Assembly: GCA_036351015.1 (NCBI GenBank)
Contig: JAZBOG010000003.1
Span: 257,102-321,101, forward strand
Direction: 5' to 3'
Source of the DNA: Bacteroidales bacterium
GTDB lineage: Bacteria > Bacteroidota > Bacteroidia > Bacteroidales > UBA12077
DNA length: 64,000 nt
This document shows positions 3,513-58,779 of this stretch, one piece after another (position 1 is the stretch's first letter; the number at the start of each line of letters is the position of its first letter). Below the pieces are notes generated by a model. That model ran no database searches and was not told the origin of the DNA. It saw only the letters and a list, made by a program, of their open reading frames with translations. The translations under genes were made by a program, and so were the position numbers.

Positions 3513-6500
3513 TTATTGAAAAATTACTTTTTCCTGGTAGGAGGATCCTTCGGTACTCACCCGGACAAAGTATATTCCTTTGGCATAATCAGATAAATCC
3601 AGTTTCTTCTTCAATTTACCCCTGGTTTCGATCACCTCGTGATATACCCGTTGACCGGAAATATTAAGGATTTCGAGGGCATATTTCTTTTGCTGTTCAA
3701 TGGCTATCTCCACGGTAATGTGGTTGGATGTGGGGTTCGGGTAGATGCGGATATTTCCGGCAACATTTAAAAACTCAACAGATGTGGAAGAGCCCACAGT
3801 CAGGTTGGTTGTAACCGGTCCGCAGCTGTTATCGTCGGTAATTTCGAGGAGATAATCGTCGGGACTCAGGTTTTCAAATATTCCGGTTTCATTCACCACA
3901 TCCCCGGGTGTTAAGGTATAGGATAATGTTCCGGTACCGCCTGCAGCTTCAACAGTGATCGAACCGTCGGAGGCGGATTCGGACGAAGCATCGGTCACAT
4001 TCTCGGACACAATGGTAATGGCAGCGGGTTCCTCAACGTCAACCGAAAGGTTGGCTTCACAGCCATGATCATCTACCACGATCAGATCGTATGTTCCTGC
4101 GCCCACAGATCCCTGGTCTTCAACATCCGCTACCTGTCCTGATCCGTCGGAGGTAGTCCATGCATAGATATACGGAAGGGTACCCCCGGTTGCCGTAACA
4201 TTTATCGTTCCATCCTCGGCCCCATTGCAAAGGGCATCGGTAACTTCTGTAAGTTCAACCGCAAGGGGTGCAGCGGGTTCGGTAATTACCACACTATCCT
4301 CGTACATACAGTTGTGGGCATCGGTAGCAGTAAAAGAGTAGGTTCCGGGAGTTAATCCCGATTGATCTTTCTGGGTTGGAACCAGTCCCGACCCGTTATC
4401 GGTAGTCCAGAAATAGCTGAAAGTCGGCGTACCGCCGGATACGGCAAGTTGTACGGCACCATCATTCCCACCATTACATGATACATTATATACGGTTTTA
4501 TTCACCTGGATTGCCGGGGGTTGGGTAAGGTTCACACTCGATGATTTATGGCAACCGTTGGCATCGGTAACCGTAACGGTATAAAATCCTGCATCCAGAC
4601 CGTCGGCAATTTGAGTACTCTGACTTCCCGGGTCGTTCCACAGGTAGCTATAAGGTTCAGTTCCACCGCTGCGGAGTACCGTAAGCTCACCGTCGTAATC
4701 GCCATGGCAGGTAGGACTATTCACCACTTCGGCAGTGGCCAGCACTTCGGTAGGCTGGGTAATCTCATAGCCGGTAACGGTAAACTCACATTCGTTGGCG
4801 TCAGTTACTGTAATGCTGTAAGTGCCGATGCCCACATTGGTCAGGTCCTGAGTGGTAGCCCCGGTATTCCAGCTGTAGCTGTAGGGCATCTCCCCGGCAG
4901 TGGTAATATGCACATCGATATACCCATCGGTATCGCCGTAGCAGTCGAGCAGGCTGGTTGACGAGGGAGTGATCTCCCCGGCAAAGGTATAACCCAGCTC
5001 GCCGATGGTAACATTAACCACATCCACCAGGTCGGGTTCGGCTTCCACATCGGTAACCGTAACAGAGTAGGTTTGTCCGGAAGCCAGGTTGATGGCTTCG
5101 GCGGTGGTTTGACCACCGGCATTGGCATCCCACTGGTAGGTGATATCGGTGTGTCCGTCCACTGAAAAATAGCTTACGGTAGCTTTCCCGTTGGTGGTTC
5201 CCGGACAGGCATCTTTGGAGTGGGAAATATAGGCATAGAATGTGGTCTGATCCAGCACATTGAAGGTGGTATCGAACACGCATCCATTGTTGTCGGTAGC
5301 GGTCACCGAGTAGCTTCCCGGGTCGAGATCTGCAATATCTTCGGTTTCTGCAGTAAAGCCCGAGGGTCCTTCCCAGCTGAAGGTAACCGTTCCGGTTCCT
5401 CCCTGGTACACCAGGTCGATGGCTCCCAGGTCAGCTGGGCCGGTATAGTGGGTTACCACGGATTCCCCGAAGGTAACGGGCTTAGGCCCGGTAAGGATTA
5501 TAGCCGTATCGGCAGTACATCCTTCGGCATCGGTAACGGTAACACAATAGGTTCCGGCAGTCAGGCCGGTTTGGTCTTCGGAGGTCAGGCTAACGCCCGA
5601 TCCGCCTTCGCTTTCGAACCAGTAATAGGTATTTCCTCCATTGCCGCCGGTAACGCTGATGTCTATTTCGCCTTCGCCGCTATAACTACAGGTGGTAACA
5701 TGCGTTACCGAGGGGTTAAAAAGGAAAGAATCCGGTTCGGCCAGGGTATGTAGTGCAATGGCGGAAGAGTCGAGGGCATCAGTTACGGTCACCGAGTAGG
5801 TTCCGGCAGATAATCCGGTAGCGGTTGAATCATTTAAGCCAGGATCGTGGTTCCAGGCGTAGGTATAGGGCGAAACGCCAAAGTAGGGGGTAACCACCAG
5901 CTCGCCGTCGGTACTTCCATAGCAGGTGGGGTTGGTTTTTTTGGTGAAGGTGGCATTTAACTCGGGGATAAACTGGGCCAGAATTCCATTATAAGTTCCG
6001 GTTGAATTAAAAAGTGTTCCCTCTCCGATTTGTAAACTTGCTGATCTATAAGCTCCGCCAAAAGTATTTATTCCATCTGAAGAAATTTCCAGAATATCTC
6101 CTTGATCAACTCCTCCTTCACCATATAAACTTGAAGCAAACAAAGTATTGCCTAAATTATCCAGACCTGCAACATAAATATCTAAATCTGATGAAGAACT
6201 TGAATTAATCGTATCGTCACCAAAAACCAATTCATCTGAAAAATATCCTGAAATATATAACTTATTTCTACGGGAAAGGATTACTTTGGCTACATCATTT
6301 CCAATACCTCCATAACCACGAGACCACAATAAATTCCCGTTTTTGTTATATTTATGGATAAAAATATCATTGGATCCACTGGTGCTTAAAATGACATTAC
6401 TGGTCAATGTTTCCGTGGAATCCGCATAAAATTCCGTGCCACTAAAATATCCGGTAAAATAAATATTCCCATAATCATCCTGTGTAATTGTGCCTGTATA

Positions 6501-7346
6501 ATCATTGTTATTCCCATAGGATTGCCTCACCCACAACCCATTCCCATCAAAATCAGTTTTGTATAAATAAACATCAGATTTATTGGTAATATAACTGGAT
6601 ATTGTTTTTACATCTAAATATAAATCCCCAAGAAAAATACCATTAAAATAATATCCGTCGTTAAAAGCGCTTATCGATGTTAATTTTCCAGTACCTGAAG
6701 AATTAAGAATATTGTCAACCCAAAGGTAATTTCCATCATCATCTAATTTAAAAATATAATTATTTGTTCCTGTTCCTCTTAAGGTATCGTCAGAATAAAT
6801 AAGAGAATCGACATAATCACCTACCAGTATAATATTGTTTGATTTATCTATATCAATTCCGTTAATATATTGTGTAGATTCACCCCAAGCTATTTTTTTG
6901 GACCATAGAAAACTTCCATTAATGTTATATTTTGCCAAAAACACATCATAAGAACCGGCATCACTTATTAAAGAATCTTGATTTTCGTTGAAATAACAGG
7001 TATCCTGGAAAATTCCGGTTACAAAAATATTGTGATATTGATCTAGTTTCAGATCAATATATAAAAGTTCATTTCCTTTACCCCCAATGGTTTTAATCCA
7101 AACAGGTTGTAGGTCACTAGAAATTTTAGCAATGAAGAAATCAAAACCTCCATTAGAGTTTATAGTATCACCAATGCTATTTTGAAAATGCCCGGCAATA
7201 TAGATATTATCATTCTCATCAATATCATTGGAAAGAATTCTCACATTTCCGGATGAATTAACTTCAAGATAATCTTTCCAAGTTTGTGCAGATGTAATTG
7301 CTGTAATAAAAACAAAAAAATTCAATAAAAATATTAGTTTTTTCAT
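3513..7346 (-). CDS. large T9SS-secreted surface protein: signal peptide, beta-propeller-like N-terminal half, nine SprB-type repeats and a type A C-terminal sorting domain
   Basis: The signal peptide is MKKLIFLLNFFVFITAITSAQ. The N-terminal ~465 aa carry recurring YI.G.F....F / D.F..K motifs (SBBP/propeller-like). There are nine repeats of the pattern C.G..DG.I.....GG..PY.Y.W......T....L.AGTY.VTVTD..GC. The C-terminus IYPNPTSNHITVEI...GIYFVRV...KVIFQ matches a Por/T9SS sorting domain. Confidence 0.85.
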   Translation of the reverse strand: MKKLIFLLNFFVFITAITSAQTWKDYLEVNSSGNVRILSNDIDENDNIYIAGHFQNSIGDTINSNGGFDFFIAKISSDLQPVWIKTIGGKGNELLYIDLKLDQYHNIFVTGIFQDTCYFNENQDSLISDAGSYDVFLAKYNINGSFLWSKKIAWGESTQYINGIDIDKSNNIILVGDYVDSLIYSDDTLRGTGTNNYIFKLDDDGNYLWVDNILNSSGTGKLTSISAFNDGYYFNGIFLGDLYLDVKTISSYITNKSDVYLYKTDFDGNGLWVRQSYGNNNDYTGTITQDDYGNIYFTGYFSGTEFYADSTETLTSNVILSTSGSNDIFIHKYNKNGNLLWSRGYGGIGNDVAKVILSRRNKLYISGYFSDELVFGDDTINSSSSSDLDIYVAGLDNLGNTLFASSLYGEGGVDQGDILEISSDGINTFGGAYRSASLQIGEGTLFNSTGTYNGILAQFIPELNATFTKKTNPTCYGSTDGELVVTPYFGVSPYTYAWNHDPGLNDSTATGLSAGTYSVTVTDALDSSAIALHTLAEPDSFLFNPSVTHVTTCSYSGEGEIDISVTGGNGGNTYYWFESEGGSGVSLTSEDQTGLTAGTYCVTVTDAEGCTADTAIILTGPKPVTFGESVVTHYTGPADLGAIDLVYQGGTGTVTFSWEGPSGFTAETEDIADLDPGSYSVTATDNNGCVFDTTFNVLDQTTFYAYISHSKDACPGTTNGKATVSYFSVDGHTDITYQWDANAGGQTTAEAINLASGQTYSVTVTDVEAEPDLVDVVNVTIGELGYTFAGEITPSSTSLLDCYGDTDGYIDVHITTAGEMPYSYSWNTGATTQDLTNVGIGTYSITVTDANECEFTVTGYEITQPTEVLATAEVVNSPTCHGDYDGELTVLRSGGTEPYSYLWNDPGSQSTQIADGLDAGFYTVTVTDANGCHKSSSVNLTQPPAIQVNKTVYNVSCNGGNDGAVQLAVSGGTPTFSYFWTTDNGSGLVPTQKDQSGLTPGTYSFTATDAHNCMYEDSVVITEPAAPLAVELTEVTDALCNGAEDGTINVTATGGTLPYIYAWTTSDGSGQVADVEDQGSVGAGTYDLIVVDDHGCEANLSVDVEEPAAITIVSENVTDASSESASDGSITVEAAGGTGTLSYTLTPGDVVNETGIFENLSPDDYLLEITDDNSCGPVTTNLTVGSSTSVEFLNVAGNIRIYPNPTSNHITVEIAIEQQKKYALEILNISGQRVYHEVIETRGKLKKKLDLSDYAKGIYFVRVSTEGSSYQEKVIFQ
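3780..5933 (-). repeat. array of nine tandem SprB-type coding repeats (~75-80 aa each) inside the T9SS cargo gene
   Basis: The repeat ends recur as SVTVTDALDSS, CVTVTDAEGC, SVTATDNNGC, SVTVTDVEAEP, SITVTDANEC, TVTVTDANGC, SFTATDAHNC, DLIVVDDHGC and LLEITDDNSC. The repeats are diverged at the DNA level. Confidence 0.7.
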
Positions 7347-7357
7347 GAAGTTCTTTT

Positions 7358-7513
7358 TTAACTCTCATAAATATAATCTTCAGTAGGATCAAGACCATTC
7401 CCTCCTTCTGTTTTCATTTTATCCAGGGAAAAAAGTTTTGGCATTTCCCAGGTTAACTTCGTATTATGTAGAGGTGTGTTTTTCTCTTCCAGTGTTCTCT
7501 CTTTCTCGTCCAT
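7358..7513 (-). CDS. candidate lasso-peptide precursor (51 aa): MDEKERTLEEKNTPLHNTKLTWEMPKLFSLDKMKTE|GGNGLDPTEDYIYES
   Basis: This is the first ATG of the 64-aa ORF; the TTG at 7552 overlaps a promoter box. It lies downstream of B1/B2 on the same strand. The leader has WEMPKL (a YxxPxL-type recognition motif) and Thr at -2 before Gly1. The core has Glu9 as a possible macrolactam acceptor and ends in Ser. Confidence 0.45.
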   Translation of the reverse strand: MDEKERTLEEKNTPLHNTKLTWEMPKLFSLDKMKTEGGNGLDPTEDYIYES

Positions 7514-7549: not shown

Positions 7550-7557
7550 CAAATATA
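7550..7557 (-). promoter_or_regulatory. Bacteroidota sigma-A -7 box (TAnnTTTG) upstream of the precursor ORF
   Basis: The minus strand reads TATATTTG about 37 nt upstream of the ATG at 7513. I saw no clean -33 TTTG element. Confidence 0.3.
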
Positions 7558-7674: not shown

Positions 7675-8112
7675 TCAGCTATAAAAACCAACTACCGTAA
7701 ATTCTTTGTGCCCCTTTTCTCCAGCCACTACTTTGCCTCCGGCTTTGAGCCAGGCGTGGGCTTTTAAGCCCTCACCCTCTCCTTTCTTCACCCCCAGGTA
7801 CAAGGTACTGCCCAGGCCATAAACTTTTAACACTTTTTTTACCGCGATGGCCTCTTCAAAGCATTTTACCTTCCACGGCAACCGCCGTTTCATCCGCCGC
7901 AGGGCATGCTGTGCTCTGCCAATCAACTCCTCCTGCCCTTCCTTCAAAACATCCTTATTCTCATTCCGAAAAGCCCCTAACCGGTGCGAAAACCATCGCA
8001 AGGGCAACCACCTTACCCATACAAACGACACCACCAGCCAGTAAAAGGTTTGCCAAAGCAACCGTTTTTCCTGCCGCGGGGCGTTTAAATATTTACTAAA
8101 CAAATGAAACAT
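7675..8112 (-). CDS. lasso peptide biosynthesis B2 protein (transglutaminase-core leader peptidase)
   Basis: The 145-aa size fits. The Cys is in KVKCFEEAIAVKKVL and the His in GLKAHAWLKAGGKVVAGE, which is the typical B2 / Transglut_core3 signature. The gene is adjacent to a PqqD-like gene. Confidence 0.8.
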   Translation of the reverse strand: MFHLFSKYLNAPRQEKRLLWQTFYWLVVSFVWVRWLPLRWFSHRLGAFRNENKDVLKEGQEELIGRAQHALRRMKRRLPWKVKCFEEAIAVKKVLKVYGLGSTLYLGVKKGEGEGLKAHAWLKAGGKVVAGEKGHKEFTVVGFYS

Positions 8113-8156: not shown

Positions 8157-8435
8157 TTAGGTTGTAACAATTAGCTTTTTTTCTGCCAGATCGTTTAAAA
8201 AAGGGAGTATATCCTGCAGACACTTTTCCCGGCTTACTTCATATTTTTCGGTAATTAAATCAGCCAGGTCTTTTATCGTAATTGGTTTCTCGATGTTATC
8301 CCAAATAAAACTGCCGGTTTTTCCCAGTCCGTAATATTCGCCTTGCTGGATGCTCATCATTACTTTTTCGCCGTCGATATCGCTGGCCAGGATATCGTTG
8401 TTTCGCTGGATGATGTTATTTTCTGTTAGTTTCAT
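8157..8435 (-). CDS. PqqD-family RiPP recognition element (lasso B1)
   Basis: The 92-aa protein carries DGEKVMMSIQQGEYYGLGKTGSFIWDNIEKPITIKDL...EKCLQDILPFLNDLAEKKLI, the classic PqqD pattern. Confidence 0.85.
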   Translation of the reverse strand: MKLTENNIIQRNNDILASDIDGEKVMMSIQQGEYYGLGKTGSFIWDNIEKPITIKDLADLITEKYEVSREKCLQDILPFLNDLAEKKLIVTT

Positions 8436-8601
8436 TGATACTAGTTCGTTTATTTTATTCTCATTTTTTCTCGCAGCGACTCGTCCCGCTAGTCCCGAAA
8501 GCTATTGGGACACAAAGTCTTTTGCAAAGCATCGCAGAAAAACTGCTTCCTGTTGCCTGCCTCCGGCAGGTAAACTGGTTACTGCCGCTAATAATTTTAA
8601 T

Positions 8602-9468
8602 TTAAAAAACAATTTCATCTTTCTCATCCAAATATCCGAATTTTTTCATCACCCCGCGGTGGTTGCTGAGAATTTTGTTCACCTGCTTTTCGCTTAAATG
8701 ATTCCTCCAGTCGCCTACCTTCCCCTTCCGGAAGAACTGTTTCGATTTGATCATCTTCTCCTTAAACCCGCTCTTTTTCTCCTGTTGGGTAAGGATGTGA
8801 AAATCGCTTTTTTGCAGGGCATCCACAATTTTATCGAGGGAAGCTCCGAGGCCTAAAAACTTCACTGCCTGCGAAAAGGTGGTTAACGGGTCGCTGAGCA
8901 TATCCTCGTAACGCATCACATGGACAGGGATTAACGATTGCTCCGTCCAGCTATTCACATGGTCCGACCAGCTGCCCAGCAGCTGTCGAAGCTGGTTTAC
9001 CTGCCGGTCGTTGCGGTCGCAAAAGGCATAGCCTGGGTCGCTGATAATTTTCACCATCTTCTCCACGGGTTTTGCACTGTGGTAAGCAAAAGATACCAGC
9101 ACATCCAGGGGGTTTCGCATAAAATAGACGCACCCCCTCGAAATTTCGGGCGGGAACAGGGGCTGATCCGGCTCAACGAAATAAAAACGGTCGTGTACCT
9201 TTTTAAACAACAGCTCTTCCGACTCTTCCGACTGCATCCTGTAAACATCAGGCCTCAGGCGGTCAATCTCCTCAAAAGTCATATCGGCAGAAGAGAGGCC
9301 GGTATACTCGTCGAAAATCCTGCGTGAGCTGGAGATGGAGGTCTCCTTCAGATCATTGATACTTGCCGGCTGGTCCGAGTCGCCCAACAGGTTGGTAATA
9401 AAGATCCGGAACCAGGTATTCCCTGATTTGGGGTAACTGGCCAGCCATATGACATTTTTTTCAGGCAT
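8602..9468 (-). CDS. PAPS-dependent sulfotransferase (Sulfotransfer_1-like)
   Basis: The 5'-PSB loop is SYPKSGNTW and the 3'-PB motif is FRKGKVGDWRNHLS. I chose the ATG at 9466-9468 (MPEKNVIWLASYPKSGNTW). It lies 2 nt after the kinase stop at 9461-9463, whereas the longer listed ORF would overlap the kinase by 50 nt. Confidence 0.85.
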   Translation of the reverse strand: MPEKNVIWLASYPKSGNTWFRIFITNLLGDSDQPASINDLKETSISSSRRIFDEYTGLSSADMTFEEIDRLRPDVYRMQSEESEELLFKKVHDRFYFVEPDQPLFPPEISRGCVYFMRNPLDVLVSFAYHSAKPVEKMVKIISDPGYAFCDRNDRQVNQLRQLLGSWSDHVNSWTEQSLIPVHVMRYEDMLSDPLTTFSQAVKFLGLGASLDKIVDALQKSDFHILTQQEKKSGFKEKMIKSKQFFRKGKVGDWRNHLSEKQVNKILSNHRGVMKKFGYLDEKDEIVF

Positions 9469-10357
9469 CGAGGGCAAAGTTTTGGCGTAAAAAAATGGCA
9501 AACTCTTCAAGCATCAACGGCGCCTGGGGTCGTTTCACCCGGTAAACCTTCACCTGTTTTAACAGCTGACTGATTCCCCGGAAATGCTCCTGCTGTTTTT
9601 GCAGTCCCTCCACAAACCGGTAGCGGAAGGTGCTGTTTTTCAAAGCGTTAAATTTCTCTACCCCGGTCAGCTCTTCATACTCAAAACCCGGGGTGTTTTT
9701 GGGCTGGATGATAAAGATATTGTTTACCGGCAAAGGCTCAGTACAAAAATTTTCGTCGATGGTATATTTATATTTCTGGATATCGGGACGGATGGCTGAT
9801 AAGGTGTCGGCAGCAATTCCCAGTTTCCCGAGGACATCCTTCCATATTTTCATGTTGGGAAACCCGGGTTCTACCTGCAGGGAAGCATTGATCACGCTGA
9901 TATCATCGGCAAGGATCTGGTATCCTTGCCGGACAAACCAGGCGGCTATGGAGGATTTTCCTACCCCGCTCAAGCCGGTAAACACCGACACCGCCGGTCC
10001 AAACCTGATGGCACTGCCATGGATGGGCAATAATCCCCGCTGAATAAACAGTGCTCCAAAAGCCGATCCAAGCAAAAACAGGCGTACCTCCCTGTCGACC
10101 CTGGATTTGAAGGGTTCCACAACAATCTCTTTTCCGTTTTTAACATAAAACCGGGCAATCCCGTCGGTCTCCAGCAGAAACTCATCCTTTCCGGCCTGGT
10201 AGCGAACTCCTTTTTGGATGATCCGGTTAAGCTGTCCGGGTGTTTTTCCGATCCTTACCTCAACATCCGGCTTTTCTGCTGATGCCAACAGCTCAGGGAT
10301 CTCAAAATCGGAAATAAAATGCAACCCAAAGGCTTTATAATGATACTTTTTATTCAT
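9461..10357 (-). CDS. HPr-kinase-related serine kinase (lasso-peptide tailoring kinase type)
   Basis: The sequence LPIHGSAIRFGPAVSVFTGLSGVGKSSIAAWFVRQGYQILADDISVI matches the HprK C-terminal P-loop domain. The size of 298 aa and the position next to B1/B2 match paeninodin-type kinases. Confidence 0.75.
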   Translation of the reverse strand: MNKKYHYKAFGLHFISDFEIPELLASAEKPDVEVRIGKTPGQLNRIIQKGVRYQAGKDEFLLETDGIARFYVKNGKEIVVEPFKSRVDREVRLFLLGSAFGALFIQRGLLPIHGSAIRFGPAVSVFTGLSGVGKSSIAAWFVRQGYQILADDISVINASLQVEPGFPNMKIWKDVLGKLGIAADTLSAIRPDIQKYKYTIDENFCTEPLPVNNIFIIQPKNTPGFEYEELTGVEKFNALKNSTFRYRFVEGLQKQQEHFRGISQLLKQVKVYRVKRPQAPLMLEEFAIFLRQNFALDA

Positions 10358-10374
10358 AGTTAGTGGTTGTCCTA

Positions 10375-10382
10375 CAAAGGTA
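10375..10382 (-). promoter_or_regulatory. possible -7 box (TACCTTTG) for the kinase-sulfotransferase operon
   Basis: The minus strand matches TAnnTTTG 18-25 nt upstream of the kinase ATG at 10357. I saw no convincing -33 element. Confidence 0.25.
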
Positions 10383-10730
10383 AAGGAAATTTTGTTGAAT
10401 TTGGATCATTTAAGAGCATCTTACCTAAAAATCTATGCAAAAAAACCCGAAGACTTTATTGCTTTATGCTGACGATAAATGACCGTATGAAGCAATCGGT
10501 TTAGACAAATGATTAGGAGAATGTTTCGTTTCCCGAGAGCTCCCAATAACCGCATTCCTTTCAAAAGATTCACCAAGGTACTTCAGGTTAAAGCAATCAG
10601 TAGTGAACAAAATCTCAGGGTATGCTGTAGTATTAAAGATTAAAGAAACGATAAAAGAAAATCCGGTAAAAAATTTACCGCTTAAAAATTAATCTTTATA
10701 TTTAACTTGAACTATAAAAACCACAAAGCC

Positions 10731-11348
10731 ATGGATCTTAAGCAAACGATTGAAAAACGAGCAAGCATAAGAACCTTTACCGACGAGAAGGTTCCGGTGA
10801 ATGATTTAAAGGAGCTGGTACGAAGGGCCGGTTTAGCACCCAGTGTTAACAACTTCCAGCCCTGGAAGTTTTATGCCATCACCAACCAGAATATTCTAAA
10901 TAAACTGGCTTTGAAGGTGTCGGAAAAAATCAAACAACTACCGGCCAATCAATCGATTGCCTCGAAAAATGTAAAGTCACAGGTGGAGTGGTTTGCCACC
11001 TTTTTTGAAAATGCACCGGCAGTGATCGCCATGGCCATGGAGGATTACGAGTCGGTTTTAGAAAAAGGAGTCAATTTAACCCACGAGGAGATTAATAAGT
11101 TACGTAACTTCCCGGATATGCAAAGTGCAGGGGCAGCCATCCAGAACATCCTGCTTTCGGCAGTGGATTTAGGCTATGGGGCCTGTTGGCTAAGTGCTCC
11201 CATGATGGCCAAGTAGGAGCTGGAGAAGATTCTCCACATCGAAAGCCCTTTTCATCTTATTGCCTTTGTGGCTGTAGGAAAAGCATCCAAAGACATGCAG
11301 CCCAAACCGAAGAAATCATTGGACGAAATATTTACGCTTGTTGAATAA
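10731..11348 (+). pseudogene. nitroreductase-family gene interrupted by a single in-frame TAG at 11214-11216
   Basis: The N-terminal part (MDLKQTIEKRASIRTF...PSVNNFQPWKFY...GYGACWLSAPMMAK) stops at the TAG. The same frame then continues for 43 codons (ELEKILHIESPFHLIAFVAVGKASKDMQPKPKKSLDEIFTLVE) to the TAA at 11346-11348. That continuation is the expected nitroreductase C-terminus. Confidence 0.6.
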
Positions 11349-41209: not shown

Positions 41210-42091
41210 ATGAAAATATCAACGATTAAACATATCACCTTAGAAGATGTTTACTGGCGGCTAAAAGCAGGCAGGTCAGGAAAACGGCTGACTGTTTTTG
41301 AGTTAAGAGCGGATTTAAACAAGTATATCCAAAATCCTGTTTTTTTTCTTTCCACGGGTAGATGTGGCACCAAATGGTTTTCAGATTTATTAACTCATGC
41401 TAAAGAATTATTCGTTTTACACAGCCCTGTCCCAAGTCTTGCCATCCAAAGCAAACTGGCATATGAAATCTTAAAAACGGGAAATCTGAAGAATAGTCAT
41501 GTAGATTTATTGGAAGAAATTTTTCTTACCGGCAGAGAACAACACCTAAGGTATAGTTATAAAACAAACAAAAGATATATTGAAACGAATAATTATGTTA
41601 CCTTTTTTGCTCCCCTTCTGAATAAACTTTTTCCTGATGCAAAATTTGTACATCTTTATAGGCATCCTGGAGAATTTGTACGTTCGGCCATACGCAGAAA
41701 TTACTATACCGAGAATAATCCGGATAACCTAAAAAGGATCATTCCCTTGGATAGCCAACAAAAAGAGCAATGGAAACATTTTACCCAACTAGAGAAAACC
41801 GCCTGGTTATGGAATGAAACAAATCTATTTATCGAACAATTTAAAGAAAAAAATCCCGGGAAGGTTTTTGATTTTAACTTTAATGAGCTAACAACAGATC
41901 ATGTAATCAAATTATTACATTTCCTGGGAATTAAGATAAATCCTGGAATCATAAGTAAGTCGCTTAACAAAAAAGCAAATGTTCAAAAAAAGGGGAATTT
42001 CAAAAAATACTCAACCTGGGAAAAAGAAAAAAAACAAGAGTTAATCAACATATGTAACGAATTGGCAGCAAAGTACAACTATAACTTATGA
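41210..42091 (+). CDS. probable sulfotransferase (Sulfotransfer_3-like)
   Basis: The P-loop-like PAPS motif is FFLSTGRCGTKWF, followed later by VHLYRHPGEFVRSAIRR. The gene sits inside a polysaccharide gene cluster. Confidence 0.55.
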   Translation: MKISTIKHITLEDVYWRLKAGRSGKRLTVFELRADLNKYIQNPVFFLSTGRCGTKWFSDLLTHAKELFVLHSPVPSLAIQSKLAYEILKTGNLKNSHVDLLEEIFLTGREQHLRYSYKTNKRYIETNNYVTFFAPLLNKLFPDAKFVHLYRHPGEFVRSAIRRNYYTENNPDNLKRIIPLDSQQKEQWKHFTQLEKTAWLWNETNLFIEQFKEKNPGKVFDFNFNELTTDHVIKLLHFLGIKINPGIISKSLNKKANVQKKGNFKKYSTWEKEKKQELINICNELAAKYNYNL

Positions 42092-54138: not shown

Positions 54139-56025
54139 ATGCAATCCTATTTCGGTAAAATAAACCTGAACAATAACAGTGTAAACCAGGAAGATGTTGT
54201 TGGTGCTCTTAAAGAACTATCCCCCGGAAAGAACCTTAATCAATCGATGATTTGCAATCACCATTATGGACTGGGAGCCATTGAAATTTTCCCTGCCAAA
54301 CACCGCAACACCAAGCATTCTCCTTTCAAATCAGGAGCTTACATAATTTTAGAGGATTGCAGGATCGACAACCGCGAAACATTGATCCGTAAACTTAATC
54401 TTGATTCTAAAAGCATCACCGACCCCGAATTGATTCTGCAATGCTTTCAGCGATGGAAAGCAGACTGTCCAAAATACTTAACCGGCGATTTCTCTTTTGC
54501 GATATGGAACACAGAAACCCATGAACTATTTTGTGCCAGAGACCACTTTGGCGTAAAACCATTGAATTATTACCTGGATGATCATCAATTTATTTTTTCA
54601 ACAGAGATTCGGGGTATTTTAAGCCAGCAAAATTTAGACTTAACCATCGACCAGCAATTTATTGCCGACACCCTCTCCATTATAAAGTCTGATCATTCCA
54701 GGTCAACGTACCAGGGAATAAGAAAACTTCCCCCGGCACATTCCCTTCACCTAAAAAATAAGGAACTTACTCTCAGGAGATACTGGGAGTTAAAACCTGC
54801 ATACACTTCATGCAAGGACGAAGAGGAGTATATCCGCCGGTTTAAAGAATTACTCAACCAGGCTGTTCAACGCAGGCTGGAAGATCCGGTAAACTATGGC
54901 GCCGAGTTAAGCGGGGGTATTGACTCTTCAAGCATCGCCTCTTTGGCCTCCCGTCGGGTAACCCTAAAAACCTTTTCACACGTCATGCCCGATGAAATGA
55001 TCGGGAAAGTGCATCCGTTTAACGATGAGAAAAAATATATCCGTTTACTTAACGATTTCTGCAATATCAACCAACGATTTTTAATCACTTCTGAAAATTC
55101 GGGCATCATCCAGGCTCTGGAAAACAGCCTACTCCTCAACCAGGGGATTGTACAACAGAACTTTAGTGTGTTTTCTGACCAGCTCTACCAGGAAGCCGAA
55201 AATCAGAACGTGCAGGTATTGCTTTCGGGCTTTGGAGGAGATGAAGTGGTAACCTCAAAGGCAGGCAACTATTTAAGAGAGATCCTTAAGGAGCGGGAGT
55301 TTAAAACCGACCTTAAAGCACAAGGCCTCCCAACAATTGCCATTCACCTTACCAAATTTAAATACTGGTTAAAAAACAATTTTCCCCAGGCAACAAACCT
55401 TCTCCTGGCTTTAATAAAAGGGAAAAAATGGTGGGCCAGAAAATATAAAAATCTGGCCATTCAGAAGTCATTCAACCGACAATTTAATATTAAGCAACGT
55501 TATATTAATTATTATCAATCCATCCGAAGAGACAACCTGACAGAACAATCCACCGAAAGAATAACGCATCCGCATGTAGCACAGCGACTGGAATACAGCT
55601 CACTTGCGGCAAAACACCACGGGATCGAATATCGCTATCCACTCCTAGATAAAGATTTAATTGAATTTTATCTTTCGATGCCTCAACGACTGAAAGCAAA
55701 AAACGGAGTCTTACGGTACACTATCCGCCAGGCAATGGATGGTTACCTCCCCGAAGAGATCCAGTGGAGGGATGATAAAAGCGGAGCTACGATACCTACT
55801 GTTTTTATGCGGACCTTGATCGATAAAAATAAAATTTTCAGGATCATGGAACGGGCGAAATCCAACCCGGCTATTACCCGGTACATTGATATGCATAAGT
55901 ATCAACAATGGAGTACCCGCTTTTTTCAACGATCAGCAAAAAATAAATTTATCAATCCGGGAGCATTTTTTAATTACCTTAAACTGATTTTATTTATTGA
56001 AAATAATCCTTCCTTATTTAAATGA
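54139..56025 (+). CDS. asparagine-synthetase-like lasso peptide cyclase (macrolactam synthetase, C protein)
   Basis: The PP-loop is AELSGGIDSSSIASLA. The AsnB-like N-terminal domain (RDHFGVKPLYY-type: RDHFGVKPLNYY) begins MQSYFG without the catalytic Cys2 of true glutamine-dependent AsnB. The length is 628 aa. A PF14907-like nucleotidyltransferase follows with a 4-nt overlap. Confidence 0.75.
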   Translation: MQSYFGKINLNNNSVNQEDVVGALKELSPGKNLNQSMICNHHYGLGAIEIFPAKHRNTKHSPFKSGAYIILEDCRIDNRETLIRKLNLDSKSITDPELILQCFQRWKADCPKYLTGDFSFAIWNTETHELFCARDHFGVKPLNYYLDDHQFIFSTEIRGILSQQNLDLTIDQQFIADTLSIIKSDHSRSTYQGIRKLPPAHSLHLKNKELTLRRYWELKPAYTSCKDEEEYIRRFKELLNQAVQRRLEDPVNYGAELSGGIDSSSIASLASRRVTLKTFSHVMPDEMIGKVHPFNDEKKYIRLLNDFCNINQRFLITSENSGIIQALENSLLLNQGIVQQNFSVFSDQLYQEAENQNVQVLLSGFGGDEVVTSKAGNYLREILKEREFKTDLKAQGLPTIAIHLTKFKYWLKNNFPQATNLLLALIKGKKWWARKYKNLAIQKSFNRQFNIKQRYINYYQSIRRDNLTEQSTERITHPHVAQRLEYSSLAAKHHGIEYRYPLLDKDLIEFYLSMPQRLKAKNGVLRYTIRQAMDGYLPEEIQWRDDKSGATIPTVFMRTLIDKNKIFRIMERAKSNPAITRYIDMHKYQQWSTRFFQRSAKNKFINPGAFFNYLKLILFIENNPSLFK

Positions 56026-57188
56026 CAAGCAAAGCGCAACATATCATTTCCCAATATCCGGTGGAGTTACAATTGATTCTTTTATTTTCGCAGGATCATT
56101 TGTCGGGTGAAGCCATTGAAAAAATTAAGCGACTCGAAAAACAGGCAGACTGGACCTTATTTTTTGCCCTGGCCAAAAAACACCGGTTAATTTCTCATAT
56201 TACAAGATCTGCATATTTATTAAAACCGGAAATTAAAAAGCAAGTTAATACAACCCATAAAGCCCTATCTAAAAAGGCTTTGCTATATAGCAAACATTTA
56301 ATTAGCATCCACCAGATCTTAAAAAAAGAGCATATTCCCCACACCTTTTTCAAAGGGCCTTTATTATCCTTATCTCTATACCACGACATTGGTTTCAGGG
56401 ATTATAGAGACCTGGACATTTTAGTTCCTCTCTCCCGGATCGAAGTTGCCAAACGACGGATTCAGGAGCAAGGTTTTGTAATGCATGCTCCATCCTTGGA
56501 GCTGACTCCAAAGCAACGAAAAATTAATTATTCAATCAGTCATCATTACCATCTCAGAAACCCTGATGACTCCACAGAAATAGAACTGCACTGGAACTTA
56601 ACCAATCCCAGAACCTACCTTCCTCTGCCAACAGAAAAGCTCATAGCTGAGTCAGAGAATATTGAGATCGCTCAGAACAGGTTACCCTATCTTTCGAAGG
56701 AGGCAAACCTTGTTTTTTTGGCAGCCCATGGTGCTATTCATCAATGGTATCGCCTTTTCTGGCTAAAGGATTTTTCAGAAATGCTCCGGCAAAGTAGAAC
56801 CGAAGAAATTGAACAGGCATACACCCTGGCAGAAAAGCTGAAACTGGAAAAAACTTTTGCCCAGGGCTGTAGGTTATCCAATATACTTTATAACAATACT
56901 GTTCCGGATTGCATCAACCGCAAAAATAATACAGTCTTTTTAACACACTGCGCACTCAGGGCTATAGCCGATAAAGACTTAAGGCAGCAAGGCATCCCGG
57001 GTAAAATAAAATTTCTGGGATACCGGTTACATCTTAAACCTGATCGTCATTATTTCTTCAGTTTACTTTTCAGATTACGCACTCATTATTCTGACTGGGA
57101 AGTACTTCCATTACCCAACTCCTTGTTTTTTCTTTACTATTGGCTCCGTCCATTGATCCTGTTCTACAAATTTTTACGTAAAAAATAA
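56022..57188 (+). CDS. nucleotidyltransferase-fold protein (uncharacterised NTP_transf_5 type, lasso-cluster associated)
   Basis: The protein is 388 aa and contains FFKGPLLSLSLYHDIGFRDYRDLDILV (the G..RxxxDLDILV nucleotidyltransferase motif) and IELHWNL. It is translationally coupled to the cyclase (ATGA overlap). Confidence 0.65.
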   Translation: MTSKAQHIISQYPVELQLILLFSQDHLSGEAIEKIKRLEKQADWTLFFALAKKHRLISHITRSAYLLKPEIKKQVNTTHKALSKKALLYSKHLISIHQILKKEHIPHTFFKGPLLSLSLYHDIGFRDYRDLDILVPLSRIEVAKRRIQEQGFVMHAPSLELTPKQRKINYSISHHYHLRNPDDSTEIELHWNLTNPRTYLPLPTEKLIAESENIEIAQNRLPYLSKEANLVFLAAHGAIHQWYRLFWLKDFSEMLRQSRTEEIEQAYTLAEKLKLEKTFAQGCRLSNILYNNTVPDCINRKNNTVFLTHCALRAIADKDLRQQGIPGKIKFLGYRLHLKPDRHYFFSLLFRLRTHYSDWEVLPLPNSLFFLYYWLRPLILFYKFLRKK

Positions 57189-57304
57189 TCACCAACCATA
57201 GAAATAACTACAGGCTTTTGTTTATTTATTCGCCAAAAAAATTGGCGGTTGTCATAAATTTTGTGTTATTTTATTTTTTGAAAAGGAACACCAACCTTTT
57301 GCCT

Positions 57305-58399: not shown

Positions 58400-58401
58400 T
58401 T

Positions 58402-58779
58402 ATGCTTCAGACTTTTGAATCAGCAGAAACCCGGGATAAACCGTATATTATTTTTGATCCCCTAAATAACCACTTCGAGATCAGGGGGAACTCATTACCC
58501 GAAGATACTACCTTATTTTACCAACCGGTTATTGAATGGATTATAGAATATGCAAAAGATCCAAACCAGGTAACTCACCTGGTATGCAGTCTCGATTATT
58601 TTAATTCTTCATCGGCTAAAATGCTTTATGAACTGTTTATCGAGCTGGAAAAAATTAAAGATACCGGTAAAGAGGTAAAGGTAACCTGGGGTTATGATCC
58701 GGATGATCATTTAATTGAAGAAAAAGGGTTGGAATTTAAATCCATCCTTGAAATACCTTTCGAAGTACTGGAAAAATAA
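58402..58779 (+). CDS. DUF1987 (SiaC-like) protein
   Basis: The 125-aa protein contains FEIRGNSLPEDTTLFYQPVIEWI and LDYFNSSSAKMLYELF, the DUF1987 signature. Its start lies 2 nt after the SiaB-like stop. Confidence 0.65.
   Translation: MLQTFESAETRDKPYIIFDPLNNHFEIRGNSLPEDTTLFYQPVIEWIIEYAKDPNQVTHLVCSLDYFNSSSAKMLYELFIELEKIKDTGKEVKVTWGYDPDDHLIEEKGLEFKSILEIPFEVLEK

What the first reader, a model, noticed from the sequence alone, without database searches (positions are those of the whole stretch)
7358..7513. Candidate precursor: canonical lasso leader features, and a core whose tail looks designed for both Ser phosphorylation and Tyr sulfation
The ORF translates to MDEKERTLEEKNTPLHNTKLTWEMPKLFSLDKMKTE-GGNGLDPTEDYIYES.

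Leader: WEMPKL fits the YxxPxL motif bound by PqqD-type B1 proteins, with Trp in place of Tyr. Thr sits at -2 before Gly1. The spacing from the motif Leu to Thr-2 is 8 residues rather than the canonical 10.

Core (15 aa): Gly1 and Glu9 could form a 9-residue macrolactam. Asp6 is too close to Gly1, and positions 7 and 8 are not acidic. Tyr11 and Tyr13 could act as plugs.

The C-terminal residue is Ser, which is the site used by paeninodin-type kinases.

The tail EDYIYES places two Tyr residues among acidic residues. This is the classic context of tyrosine O-sulfation (compare the sulfated RiPP RaxX and its sulfotransferase RaxST). Assigning Tyr as the sulfotransferase target is inference.
Basis: partly seen in the sequence, partly recalled or inferred. 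Interest (0 to 1): 0.8.

Follow-up and report, generated by a model that had tools for sequence, protein, structure and literature searches.

The report
Lasso peptide precursor gene, Bacteroidales
This small gene is a real precursor of a knotted "lasso" peptide in an uncultured Bacteroidales bacterium; its last serine is very probably phosphorylated, but comparison with related clusters does not back the idea that its tyrosines are what the neighbouring sulfotransferase sulfates.

Summary

It is a genuine precursor of a paeninodin-like, kinase-associated lasso peptide:
- It lies directly after kinase, sulfotransferase, B1 and B2 genes.
- It has a conserved Bacteroidetes-type promoter box.
- About 97 homologues in Bacteroidales metagenomes share a conserved leader (W-15, P-12, T-2) and a hypervariable core. 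The core consensus is GG..., Glu9 in 75%, C-terminal Ser in 91%.
- The "short" Leu-to-Thr spacing of 8 is the norm for this family, not an anomaly.

The cyclase and a nucleotidyltransferase lie 46 kb away. In relatives they sit next to the kinase.

Ser15 phosphorylation is well supported by comparison. Tyr sulfation is not:
- The enzyme is a cytosolic SULT/Teg12-type sulfotransferase, not a TPST/RaxST type.
- The acidic context around Tyr is not conserved.
- Tyr-free cores sit beside intact sulfotransferases.
- In 15 of 34 loci from other phyla, no candidate core contains Tyr.
- The sulfotransferase's only constant partner is the kinase.

Tyr13 does occupy a position (ring acceptor +4) where Tyr outnumbers Phe 46:1, so it stays a candidate site.

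Verdict: a new member of a known kind, with an unresolved sulfation site.

The parts
7358..7513 (-). Precursor gene (A), 51 aa plus stop. Leader is 7513..7406 (36 aa), core is 7405..7361 (GGNGLDPTEDYIYES), stop is 7360..7358.
   Evidence: Translation. Exact NCBI protein. Same position after B2 in the homologous loci. Family of 97 precursors. Only pattern match in the window.
7550..7557 (-). TATATTTG, a match to the Bacteroidetes-type -7 promoter box TAnnTTTG (consensus from my own knowledge), about 37 nt upstream of the ATG. It lies over the alternative upstream TTG start at 7552, which argues for the ATG at 7513.
   Evidence: Conserved block GCAAAGTGTAT[A/C]TTTGCA within an otherwise 68%-identical spacer between the window and L001. 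A TAnnTTTG box lies within 70 nt upstream of the called precursor start in L082, L083 and L085-L088. Function as a promoter is inferred.
7675..8112 (-). B2 leader peptidase (transglutaminase-like cysteine protease).
   Evidence: PF13471, 79 bits. NF033537 lasso_biosyn_B2, 85.3 bits against a cutoff of 33.
8157..8435 (-). B1, a discrete PqqD-type RiPP recognition element.
   Evidence: PF05402, 67.9 bits. NF033536 lasso_PqqD_Bac, 101.4 bits against a cutoff of 80. Best PDB hit is 9x90_B, a lasso PqqD chaperone, at E = 3e-20, compared with TbiB1 at 2e-10 and 9x8z at 1.5e-4.
8602..9468 (-). PAPS-dependent cytosolic-type sulfotransferase, 288 aa counted from the ATG at 9468. Its start overlaps the kinase stop by 8 nt (ATGCCTGA).
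   Evidence: PF00685, 100.9 bits. Invariant PKSGNTW, KxHD, RNPxDVxVS and FFRKGxxG motifs in alignment A1. Nearest solved structures are Teg12, Teg14, StaL and SULT1. Junction sequence.
9461..10357 (-). HPr-kinase-like P-loop kinase, the paeninodin-type tailoring kinase.
   Evidence: Weak PF07475 hit, 22.4 bits against a cutoff of 33.3. GLSGVGKS at residue 128 and ADD at 150. A homologue was detected in 77 of 80 sulfotransferase loci and lies directly upstream in 67 of them.
54139..56025 (+). Probable lasso macrolactam cyclase (C), encoded about 46 kb from the rest of the cluster.
   Evidence: PF00733. NF033535 lasso cyclase, 374 bits, below the cutoff of 525 but well above the Asn synthase model at 236 bits. 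44-50% identical to the cyclases that lie next to the kinase in L083 and L085-L088. SGGIDS ATP-binding motif present, and the N-terminus MQSYF lacks the Cys2 nucleophile.
56022..57188 (+). PF14907 nucleotidyltransferase (PsmN-like). Its start overlaps the cyclase stop.
   Evidence: PF14907, 154.8 bits. 42-47% identical to the nucleotidyltransferases next to C in L083-L087. PsmN is required for adding hexose to the phosphate of pseudomycoidin (PMC6993621).
3513..7346 (-). SprB-repeat protein with a T9SS C-terminal sorting domain. It starts 11 nt after the precursor stop codon and is probably co-transcribed. Whether it belongs to the system functionally is unknown.
   Evidence: PF13573 and PF18962. 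The same junction occurs in L082, L083 and L085-L091, and SprB homologues start right after the candidate precursor in L002, L003, L005, L012, L013, L015, L023 and L044.

Best explanation
The ORF is the precursor (A) gene of a paeninodin-like, kinase-associated lasso peptide cluster in an uncultured Bacteroidales bacterium.

Proposed pathway (all steps inferred from homology; none was shown here):
1. The 51-aa peptide is transcribed from its own promoter, probably together with the downstream SprB-like gene.
2. B1 binds the leader through W-15, P-12 and L-10.
3. [quoted passage not shown]
4. B2 cleaves after Glu-1, guided by Thr-2.
5. The cyclase encoded 46 kb away joins the Gly1 amine to the Glu9 side chain, giving a 9-residue ring. 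Tyr13, and perhaps Tyr11, would hold the short tail in place.
6. The PsmN-like nucleotidyltransferase next to the cyclase may add hexose to the phosphate.

The sulfotransferase is intact, PAPS-dependent and translationally coupled to the kinase, so the product is probably also sulfated. The acceptor is unresolved. Tyr13 is the best Tyr candidate, but comparison across loci points at least as strongly to a hydroxyl or phosphate at or near the C-terminal Ser.
For: - **Gene order and domains:**
- **Specificity:** this is the only precursor-pattern match in 64 kb, with none in 200 shuffles.
- **Conserved position:** a homologous small ORF lies after B2 in L001, L082, L083 and L085-L091.
- **Conservation pattern against L001:** leader 81% DNA identity and core 64%, with B1 at 83% and B2 at 80%. 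Of the 16 leader codons that differ, 9 are synonymous and 7 are not.
- **Family profile:** 97 precursors with the motif and 91 unique cores. W, P, Thr-2 and Gly2 are invariant in the 14-sequence alignment. Across the 91 cores Gly2 is 90/91, Gly1 80/91, E9 68/91 and C-terminal Ser 83/91.
- **B1:** closest to the solved lasso PqqD chaperone 9x90, which by residue numbering matches the PbaB1 that binds a WxxPxL leader with W at -15 (PMC13381572).
- **Kinase:** carries the HprK P-loop and ADD motifs. Homologous kinases phosphorylate the C-terminal Ser (PMC8498205; PMC6993621).
- **Cyclase and nucleotidyltransferase:** as diverged from the cluster-adjacent copies in relatives (44-50% and 42-47%) as B2 is (47-54%), which fits orthologues that were moved.
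- **Split layout is real:** it recurs in two independent assemblies, L082 and L084.
Against: - No cyclase lies within the cluster, and the distant one scores below NCBIfam's lasso-cyclase cutoff (374 against 525).
- No dedicated exporter was identified.
- The kinase scores below Pfam's HprK cutoff and was not compared with an experimentally characterised lasso kinase.
- The ring assignment is ambiguous. D10 follows E9, and 11 of 91 family cores have their first acidic residue at position 10. Cleavage one residue later, or a different acceptor, remains possible.
- There are no expression or mass-spectrometry data.
Confidence: 0.85

Rival explanations
1. The tail EDYIYES is modified twice: Ser15 is O-phosphorylated by the kinase, and Tyr11 and/or Tyr13 is O-sulfated by the adjacent sulfotransferase. 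That would make the first phospho- and sulfo-lasso peptide.
For: - Tyr at ring acceptor+4 (Y13 in the window) occurs in 46 of 91 family cores and Phe in 1 of 91, while the Tyr:Phe ratio over all tails is about 3:1. This suggests the hydroxyl matters at that position.
- 75 of 91 cores have a Tyr in the tail.
- The nearest solved homologues are Teg12, Teg14 and StaL (glycopeptide-antibiotic sulfotransferases) and the phenol-sulfating SULT1 enzymes.
- The enzyme has intact PAPS-binding motifs.
Against: - The enzyme is not TPST/RaxST-like: PF13469 scores 16.9 bits against a cutoff of 27, and no TPST appears among 48 PDB hits. The acidic-context rule therefore does not transfer.
- Only 40 of 93 tail Tyr residues have D/E within 2 residues.
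- The closest homologue (L001) has Phe at position 11 and its only Tyr inside the ring.
- 9 of 91 cores lack Tyr. Two of these clusters (L089, L091) keep an intact sulfotransferase.
- Outside the family, 20 of 44 candidate cores lack Tyr, and 15 of 34 loci have no Tyr in any candidate core.
- A conserved aromatic residue shortly after the ring is also what a steric plug would look like.
Confidence: 0.3
2. The sulfotransferase works as a two-enzyme module with the kinase on the C-terminal end of the peptide. Its acceptor would be a Ser/Thr hydroxyl near the C-terminus, the Ser-phosphate itself (giving a phosphosulfate), or a sugar attached to that phosphate. Tyr would not be the target.
For: - A kinase homologue was detected in 77 of 80 sulfotransferase loci from many phyla. 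It lies directly upstream on the same strand in 67 of them, mostly with estimated gaps of -16 to +30 nt.
- In the window the two genes overlap by 8 nt.
- The only near-universal core feature is the C-terminal Ser: 83 of 91 in the family and 40 of 44 elsewhere.
- One Anaerolineales cluster (L032) has six candidate precursors that all end in Ser, and three of them have no Tyr.
Against: - The single Ser hydroxyl is already the kinase's target.
- To my knowledge, no sulfotransferase that acts on a phosphate is known.
- A nucleotidyltransferase was detected in only 30 of 80 loci, so sugar sulfation cannot be the general role.
- This reading does not explain the 46:1 Tyr:Phe preference at acceptor+4.
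- Gene adjacency does not show a shared site.
Confidence: 0.4
3. The peptide is matured as a linear phosphorylated and sulfated peptide rather than a lasso, because the cluster itself has no cyclase. This would resemble the linear polyphosphorylated peptides (LPPs) of Bacillota.
For: - There is no Asn-synthase homologue within about 43 kb of the precursor; nitroreductase, ArsC and fumarase genes flank the kinase.
- Several other sulfotransferase loci show no cyclase within 6 kb.
- LPP clusters share the HprK-like kinase, nucleotidyltransferase and RRE with lasso clusters (PMC13381572).
Against: - A lasso B2 peptidase is present, not the SpI-type peptidase that defines LPPs, and the leader has WxxPxL rather than YxxPxVLxHQ.
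- Gly1/Gly2 and Glu9 are conserved, as ring formation would require.
- A cyclase-nucleotidyltransferase pair lies on the same contig. Its homologues sit next to the kinase in L083, L085-L087, L089 and L091, and L088 has a truncated cyclase there.
Confidence: 0.07
4. The ORF is not a RiPP precursor. It would be a chance ORF, or an upstream leader ORF that only regulates the SprB-like gene starting 11 nt downstream.
For: - The spacing to the SprB-like gene is tight and conserved.
- The ORF has no Pfam or NCBIfam hit and is annotated 'hypothetical'.
Against: - The pattern is unique in the window and absent from shuffles.
- 97 homologues have invariant W-15, P-12 and T-2 and a hypervariable core, which is the signature of a RiPP precursor.
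- Candidate precursors of the same design sit in kinase/B1/B2/C clusters in phyla that have no SprB neighbour.
Confidence: 0.02

Closest known systems
Paeninodin (Paenibacillus dendritiformis) and pseudomycoidin (Bacillus pseudomycoides): lasso peptides with an HprK-like kinase, with or without a PF14907 nucleotidyltransferase
   Same: - Discrete B1 and B2, an HprK-like kinase and a PF14907 nucleotidyltransferase.
- A WxxPx[L/I] leader with W at -15 and Thr at -2.
- A 9-residue ring and a C-terminal Ser, which is the phosphorylation site in the characterised members (PMC8498205, PMC6993621, PMC13381572).
- Sulfotransferase genes have already been noted in some of these clusters (PMC4289311, PMC8498205).
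   Different: - The host is Bacteroidales rather than Bacillota.
- Ring closure is Gly1-Glu9, not Ala1-Asp9 (the Ala/Asp assignment is from PMC6993621; position 9 is from my memory).
- The precursor is the last gene of the operon and is followed by a T9SS cargo gene.
- The cyclase and nucleotidyltransferase are 46 kb away.
- No ABC exporter is present.
- The sulfotransferase is a constant partner, coupled to the kinase.
Teg12, Teg14 and StaL (glycopeptide-antibiotic sulfotransferases) and cytosolic SULT1 enzymes
   Same: They belong to the same Pfam family (PF00685) and are the best PDB sequence matches, with E = 1e-14 to 1e-9. They share the PAPS-binding and catalytic motifs. From my own knowledge, Teg12 and StaL act on phenolic hydroxyls of a peptide natural product.
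   Different: The similarity is distant. Their substrates are nonribosomal glycopeptide aglycones or small phenols. Nothing here shows which hydroxyl this enzyme uses.
RaxX/RaxST (sulfated RiPP of Xanthomonas) and TPST enzymes
   Same: The only shared element is the idea: a ribosomal peptide with Tyr next to acidic residues, encoded beside a sulfotransferase.
   Different: The enzyme family differs. PF13469 was not met (16.9 bits against a cutoff of 27) and no TPST appears among the PDB hits. That TPST/RaxST belong to PF13469 is from my own knowledge. RaxX is a linear signalling peptide without RRE, B2 or cyclase. The acidic Tyr context is not conserved in this family.
Linear polyphosphorylated peptides (LPPs) of Bacillota (Popov et al. 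2026, PMC13381572)
   Same: An RRE, an HprK-like kinase, a PF14907 nucleotidyltransferase, and no cyclase within the cluster proper.
   Different: LPPs use an SpI-type signal peptidase and a YxxPxVLxHQxIxFETxxS leader. This locus has a lasso B2, a WxxPxL leader, and a cyclase elsewhere on the contig.

Membership tests
Lasso peptide precursor (paeninodin-like, kinase-associated subclass) | Leader carries the RRE-binding motif [Y/W]xxPx[L/V/I/F/A]; in paeninodin-like members it is W at -15. | tested here: met
   W22, P25 and L27 correspond to W-15, P-12 and L-10. W and P are invariant in the 14-sequence alignment and the motif is present in 97 of 98 family hits. The register matches PbaA W-15 in PMC13381572.
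Lasso peptide precursor (paeninodin-like, kinase-associated subclass) | Thr at the penultimate leader position (-2). | tested here: met
   Thr35 precedes Glu36|Gly37. Thr-2 is invariant in the alignment while positions -1 and -3 vary.
Lasso peptide precursor (paeninodin-like, kinase-associated subclass) | Core starts with a small residue and has Asp/Glu at position 7-9 for the macrolactam. | tested here: met
   G1 and E9 are present. Across the family, Gly1 is 80/91, Gly2 90/91 and E9 68/91. The actual linkage was not observed.
Lasso peptide precursor (paeninodin-like, kinase-associated subclass) | Encoded next to a discrete B1 (RRE) and a B2 peptidase. | tested here: met
   NF033536 at 101.4 bits (cutoff 80) and NF033537 at 85.3 bits (cutoff 33), both immediately upstream of the ORF.
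Lasso peptide precursor (paeninodin-like, kinase-associated subclass) | A lasso cyclase (Asn-synthase homologue) in the gene cluster. | tested here: inconclusive
   None is adjacent. The candidate at 54139-56025 scores 374 bits against NF033535 (cutoff 525). It is 44-50% identical to the cyclases next to the kinase in relatives. Action in trans is inferred.
Lasso peptide precursor (paeninodin-like, kinase-associated subclass) | C-terminal Ser together with an HprK-like kinase. | tested here: met
   Ser51 is the last residue. C-terminal Ser occurs in 83 of 91 family cores and 40 of 44 candidate cores elsewhere. The kinase has GLSGVGKS and ADD motifs but scores below the Pfam cutoff, 22.4 against 33.3.
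Lasso peptide precursor (paeninodin-like, kinase-associated subclass) | Threaded lariat topology of the mature product. | not testable with these tools
   This needs MS/MS, NMR or carboxypeptidase/heat-stability assays on the product.
Tyr-O-sulfated RiPP of the RaxX/RaxST (TPST) type | A TPST-like sulfotransferase (PF13469 family). | tested here: not met
   The adjacent enzyme is PF00685 (100.9 bits). PF13469 scores 16.9 bits against a cutoff of 27. No TPST appears among the 48 PDB hits.
Tyr-O-sulfated RiPP of the RaxX/RaxST (TPST) type | A conserved target Tyr flanked by acidic residues. | tested here: not met
   40 of 93 tail Tyr residues have D/E within 2 residues. 9 of 91 cores lack Tyr. 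L001 has Phe at position 11. In 15 of 34 loci from other phyla no candidate core contains Tyr.
PAPS-dependent cytosolic-type sulfotransferase (PF00685; SULT, Teg12, StaL) | 5'-phosphosulfate loop PKSGxTW, a catalytic His, the 3'-phosphate motif RNPxDxxVS, and an RKGxxG loop. | tested here: met
   YPKSGNTW, KVHD, RNPLDVLVS and FFRKGKVGDW are present. The corresponding columns are invariant in the 16-sequence alignment A1. The Pfam score is above cutoff.
PAPS-dependent cytosolic-type sulfotransferase (PF00685; SULT, Teg12, StaL) | Identity of the acceptor hydroxyl. | not testable with these tools
   Only indirect comparative evidence is available, and it conflicts.
Linear polyphosphorylated peptides (LPP) | An SpI-type leader peptidase and a YxxPxVLxHQxIxFETxxS leader. 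| tested here: not met
   The peptidase is a lasso B2. The leader is WEMPKLFSLDKMKTE. The LPP definition is taken from PMC13381572.

The most novel reading that the evidence does not exclude
The product would be the first lasso peptide carrying both a phosphate and a sulfate. Sulfation would fall either on the family-conserved Tyr13 (ring acceptor+4, Tyr:Phe 46:1) or, more unusually, on the phospho-Ser end. The kinase-sulfotransferase gene pair, found here across Bacteroidota, Chloroflexota, Pseudomonadota, Acidobacteriota, Cyanobacteriota, Bacillota and other phyla, would then be one conserved tailoring module whose chemistry has never been described. In Bacteroidales the peptide would in addition be co-transcribed with a giant T9SS surface protein.
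Probability: 0.3. Interest if true: 0.7.

Novelty: new member of a known kind. Interest (0 to 1): 0.45.

Why it matters
Lasso clusters with an HPr-like kinase, a sulfotransferase and a nucleotidyltransferase have been catalogued since 2014-2016. In the papers I could search, the sulfotransferase has no assigned function and no sulfated lasso peptide is reported.

This locus belongs to a large family of at least 91 distinct cores in Bacteroidales. I found no characterised lasso peptide from that group in the searches run. The precursors are annotated only as hypothetical proteins where they carry any name.

The comparison gives concrete things to test:
- Ser15 for phosphorylation.
- Tyr13 against the C-terminal end for sulfation.
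- Expected masses, given.

It also shows that the sulfotransferase is bound to the kinase rather than to Tyr. That changes which experiment to do first.

The split layout, with the cyclase 46 kb away, is a reminder that cluster finders which require an adjacent cyclase may miss such loci. This last point is my inference; I did not test it.

Tried and rejected
- **Plus-strand reading** of 7358-7513: full of stop codons.
- **Upstream TTG start** (64-aa ORF, 7552): rejected. Protein conservation begins at the ATG, NCBI and metagenome gene calls use the ATG, and the conserved TAnnTTTG box lies over the TTG.
- **Other small ORFs as the precursor.** ORFs upstream of the kinase (10433-10610) and between the sulfotransferase and B1 (8502-8627) lack the leader motif. 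The sulfotransferase-B1 spacer is only 43% identical to L001, with gaps. The small ORFs called in that spacer in L083 and L088 are unrelated to each other.
- **A second precursor near the distant cyclase:** no pattern match anywhere else in the window.
- **Known RNA element:** no Rfam family reached its gathering score anywhere in the 64 kb.
- **Sigma-70 promoter and terminator scan:** uninformative for a Bacteroidetes genome, and no terminator follows the ORF.
- **Kinase against the PDB:** only marginal HprK P-loop hits (E = 0.07), so the fold was not confirmed.
- **JBC 2016 paeninodin paper** (PMC4919450): not held in the library.
- **Sulfotransferase-free controls:** I looked for relatives within the family that lack the sulfotransferase, to correlate it with Tyr. 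None was evident among the fetched loci that cover that position. L090, where a transposase-like fragment precedes B1, is cut off at the contig end.
- **Structure prediction** of the sulfotransferase: not run. The fold is not in doubt and a model would not identify the acceptor.
Full report
**1. Observation**

The + strand of 7358-7513 contains stop codons. The ORF is on the minus strand, from ATG at 7513 to TAA at 7360-7358. It encodes MDEKERTLEEKNTPLHNTKLTWEMPKLFSLDKMKTE|GGNGLDPTEDYIYES. The same 51-aa protein is deposited as a hypothetical protein (V2I54_02525) of a Bacteroidales metagenome-assembled genome on a 396-kb contig.

The genes directly upstream on the same strand are:

| Gene | Coordinates | Evidence |
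|---|---|---|
| HprK-like kinase | 10357..9461 | weak PF07475 hit |
| Sulfotransferase | 9468..8602 | PF00685, 100.9 bits |
| B1 (PqqD-type) | 8435..8157 | NF033536, 101 bits |
| B2 peptidase | 8112..7675 | NF033537, 85 bits |

A lasso-precursor pattern matched only this ORF among 754 small ORFs in the 64 kb. It matched nothing in 200 shuffles of the window.

**2. It is a real, conserved gene**

A single-sequence search found one homologue at 70% identity. It lies on a 1.5-kb metagenome contig with the same order: sulfotransferase, B1, B2, small ORF.

DNA identity between the window and that contig:

| Region | Identity |
|---|---|
| B1 | 83% |
| Leader | 81% |
| B2 | 80% |
| B2-A spacer | 68% |
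| Core | 64% |

Of the 16 leader codons that differ, 9 are synonymous.

Within the spacer, one block is conserved: GCAAAGTGTAT[A/C]TTTGCA. It contains TAnnTTTG, which I recognise as the Bacteroidetes -7 promoter consensus. A TAnnTTTG box also lies within 70 nt upstream of the called precursor start in six further loci. The precursor therefore probably has its own promoter, and the ATG at 7513, not the upstream TTG, is the start.

Eleven further loci were fetched through homologues of the sulfotransferase or the precursor. Nine of them show a 48-58-aa ORF right after B2. A profile built from 14 such peptides recovered 98 small proteins. Of these, 97 carry Wxx-P-x-[LIVMFA]-7 residues-T-x, giving 91 unique cores.

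Family statistics:
- W-15, P-12, Leu-7, Thr-2 and Gly2 are invariant in the 14-sequence alignment.
- Across the 91 cores, Gly2 is 90/91 and Gly1 is 80/91.
- The first acidic residue at or after position 7 is Glu9 in 68 of 91, Glu10 in 11 and Glu8 in 8.
- It is followed by Asp in 53 of 91.
- The C-terminal residue is Ser in 83 of 91.

A conserved leader with a hypervariable core is the expected signature of a RiPP precursor.

**3. Which kind of lasso system**

Popov et al. 2026 (PMC13381572) report that Trp in the first motif position is nearly invariant in paeninodin-like lasso leaders. In their PbaB1-PbaA crystal structure the Trp is at -15.

The window peptide has W-15, P-12, L-10 and T-2.

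The window's B1 is most similar to PDB 9x90_B, a lasso PqqD chaperone (E = 3e-20). TbiB1 scores 2e-10, 9x8z scores 1.5e-4 and TfuB1 scores 1e-3. Applying an 18-residue tag offset to 9x90 reproduces the PbaB1 residues named in the paper. On that mapping, the window B1 keeps Y69, V71, F83 and L65 (as Ile). It has Asp for Q79 and Lys for E75. This mapping is my own reading of the alignment.

The kinase carries GLSGVGKS at residue 128 and ADD at residue 150. From my own knowledge these match the HprK P-loop and metal-binding signature, and the paired Asp residues resemble the D158/D159 metal site mutated in PsmK (PMC6993621). It scores below Pfam's cutoff and gives only marginal PDB hits. [quoted passage not shown]

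**4. The missing cyclase**

No Asn-synthase homologue lies next to the cluster. Nitroreductase, ArsC and two fumarase genes flank the kinase.

At 54139-56025 (+) there is an Asn-synthase-like gene:
- Its best NCBIfam match is the lasso cyclase model: 374 bits against a cutoff of 525, compared with 236 bits for Asn synthase.
- It has the SGGIDS motif and lacks the N-terminal Cys.
- Its stop overlaps the start of a PF14907 nucleotidyltransferase at 56022-57188. That family includes PsmN, which is required for adding hexose to the Ser-phosphate of pseudomycoidin.

In L083, L085-L087, L089 and L091 a cyclase-nucleotidyltransferase pair sits divergently next to the kinase. L088 has a truncated cyclase at the contig end.

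The window's cyclase is 44-50% identical to those copies and its nucleotidyltransferase 42-47%. B2 is 47-54% identical to its counterparts. This fits orthologues that were relocated.

The two closest relatives, L082 and L084 (kinase 78-80% identical), come from independent assemblies. They share the nitroreductase neighbour and also lack an adjacent cyclase. The split is therefore real and not a misassembly.

**5. The sulfotransferase and the Tyr hypothesis**

The enzyme has all the PAPS-binding and catalytic motifs. Its nearest solved relatives are Teg12, Teg14, StaL and the SULT1/SULT2 enzymes, at E = 1e-14 to 1e-9. No TPST appears among the hits, and PF13469 is below threshold. The "Tyr among acidic residues" rule, which applies to TPST/RaxST-type enzymes, therefore does not carry over.

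A scan of 185,579 species genomes with a sulfotransferase profile returned 80 loci from many phyla.
- A kinase homologue was detected in 77 of the 80.
- In 67 it lies directly upstream on the same strand, mostly with an estimated gap of -16 to +30 nt.
- In the window the two genes overlap by 8 nt.
- B1 was detected in 60 loci, the cyclase in 55 and the nucleotidyltransferase in only 30.

I manually curated 44 candidate precursors from 34 loci outside the Bacteroidales family.
- 40 end in Ser.
- 20 have no Tyr.
- In 15 loci no candidate core has Tyr.

One Anaerolineales cluster (L032) has six candidate precursors that all end in Ser. Three of them have no Tyr.

Within the Bacteroidales family, 9 of 91 cores lack Tyr. 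Two such clusters keep a full-length sulfotransferase with intact motifs:
- L089: GGGSSALTETTDLQSAPAS
- L091: GGTTIQTHEEFDESFS

Only 40 of 93 tail Tyr residues have an acidic residue within 2 positions. The closest homologue has Phe at position 11.

These results argue against Tyr as the conserved acceptor, and against the acidic tail being "designed" for sulfation.

One result points the other way. Four residues after the ring acceptor, which is Y13 in the window, the residue is Tyr in 46 of 91 cores and Phe in 1 of 91. The Tyr:Phe ratio over all tails is about 3:1. This suggests the hydroxyl at that position matters, either for sulfation or for a structural contact.

My estimates for the acceptor:

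| Acceptor | Probability |
|---|---|
| Tyr, most likely Y13 | about 0.3 |
| A site tied to the C-terminal Ser or phospho-Ser, or a nearby Ser/Thr | about 0.4 |
| Something else, or nothing | the remainder |

**6. Comparison with what is known**

Kinase, sulfotransferase and nucleotidyltransferase genes in lasso clusters were noted by Letzel et al. 2014 (PMC4289311) and Zhu et al. 2016, as reviewed in PMC8498205. The kinase and the PsmN-type enzyme have been studied experimentally. The sulfotransferase has not, and no paper in the searchable library reports a sulfated lasso peptide. I also found no characterised Bacteroidetes lasso peptide in the searches run.

The object is therefore a new member of a known kind, the paeninodin-like lasso precursors. 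Its family is large and uncharacterised, and it carries one open biochemical question.

**7. Side observations**

- A SprB-repeat gene with a T9SS sorting domain starts 8-45 nt after the precursor stop codon, mostly 10-12 nt. This holds in the window, in L082, L083 and L085-L091, and SprB homologues also start right after the candidate precursor in eight more distant Bacteroidales loci. purD follows it where the contig extends far enough. Co-transcription is likely. A functional link is unknown.
- Eleven of 91 cores have their first acidic residue at position 10. This implies either a 10-membered ring or cleavage one residue later.
- A second sulfotransferase (PF13469) at 41210-42091 sits in a polysaccharide locus. 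It suggests the organism makes PAPS.

**8. Verdict**

| Claim | Status |
|---|---|
| Observation | confirmed |
| Precursor identity | strongly supported |
| Ser15 phosphorylation | well supported by comparison |
| Gly1-Glu9 ring | plausible, not certain |
| Tyr sulfation | weakly supported, and contradicted as a general rule |

Interest is moderate at 0.45.

Noticed in passing
window 3513-7346 (-); also L082, L083, L085-L091, L002, L003, L005, L012, L013, L015, L023, L044: A 1277-aa SprB-repeat protein with a T9SS C-terminal sorting domain starts 11 nt after the precursor stop codon. The same precursor-then-SprB junction (mostly 10-12 nt) is kept across Bacteroidales loci whose sulfotransferases are only 41-56% identical to the window's, and purD follows where the contig extends far enough. 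Co-transcription is likely; a functional link is unknown.
   Followed up: partly
window 9461-10357 with 54139-57188; L082, L084 versus L083, L085-L089, L091: The cluster is split. The cyclase and PF14907 nucleotidyltransferase lie about 46 kb from the precursor (about 44 kb from the kinase end of the cluster). In more distant relatives they sit divergently next to the kinase. The two closest relatives share the split layout, with nitroreductase, ArsC and (in L082) fumarase genes beside the kinase.
   Followed up: yes
window 9461-9468; L002-L081: The kinase stop and the sulfotransferase start overlap by 8 nt (ATGCCTGA). Across 80 loci from many phyla, the sulfotransferase has a kinase directly upstream in 67, mostly with an estimated gap of -16 to +30 nt. 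The two look like a conserved two-gene tailoring module.
   Followed up: yes
L082 10466-10615; L086 10157-10309; 11 of 91 family cores: Some family cores have their first acidic residue at position 10 after Thr-x, for example GGASYMPQNEGITYYS and SGSSFQKQAEESEYEFS. This implies either a 10-membered macrolactam or leader cleavage one residue later.
   Followed up: no
window 41210-42091 (+): A second sulfotransferase of the PF13469 (Sulfotransfer_3) family (38.6 bits) lies inside a polysaccharide locus with GT4 glycosyltransferases, a GDSL esterase and a flippase. It is probably a glycan sulfotransferase and suggests PAPS is available in this organism.
   Followed up: no
window 15392-17350 (+): A 652-aa EF-G-like GTPase whose best match is the tetracycline ribosomal-protection family (NF012153, 604 bits), below the cutoff of 775. 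It could be a Tet(Q)/Tet(M)-like paralogue or another EF-G-family protein.
   Followed up: no
window 57218-58779 (+): A DUF6272 protein (393 aa, two copies of the domain) and a SiaC-family regulatory phosphoprotein lie immediately after the nucleotidyltransferase. They may form a partner-switch regulatory pair. Any relation to the lasso genes is unknown, and they are absent next to the nucleotidyltransferase in relatives.
   Followed up: no
L032 (Anaerolineales MAG) 4878-5063 and 9543-10795: Six WxxPxL precursor candidates sit in one kinase/sulfotransferase lasso locus, five of them in tandem. Several have Cys-rich cores (for example SGAFVCTDEGLCICNPSS) and all end in Ser.
   Followed up: no
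L014 11544-11687: A candidate with a WSKPKL leader has no Asp or Glu after the motif (FSGKGIGFLGLGQVQSSTGPYGTPS), and the locus shows no cyclase within 6 kb. It may be a linear, non-lasso product of the same tailoring enzymes.
   Followed up: no
L090 3-254: In one family locus, the gene fragment before B1 is a transposase-like sequence rather than the sulfotransferase. The contig ends there, so loss of the sulfotransferase could not be assessed.
   Followed up: partly
window 1-64000: No Rfam family reached its gathering score anywhere in the 64 kb, so no tRNA, rRNA or riboswitch was detected at that threshold.
   Followed up: no
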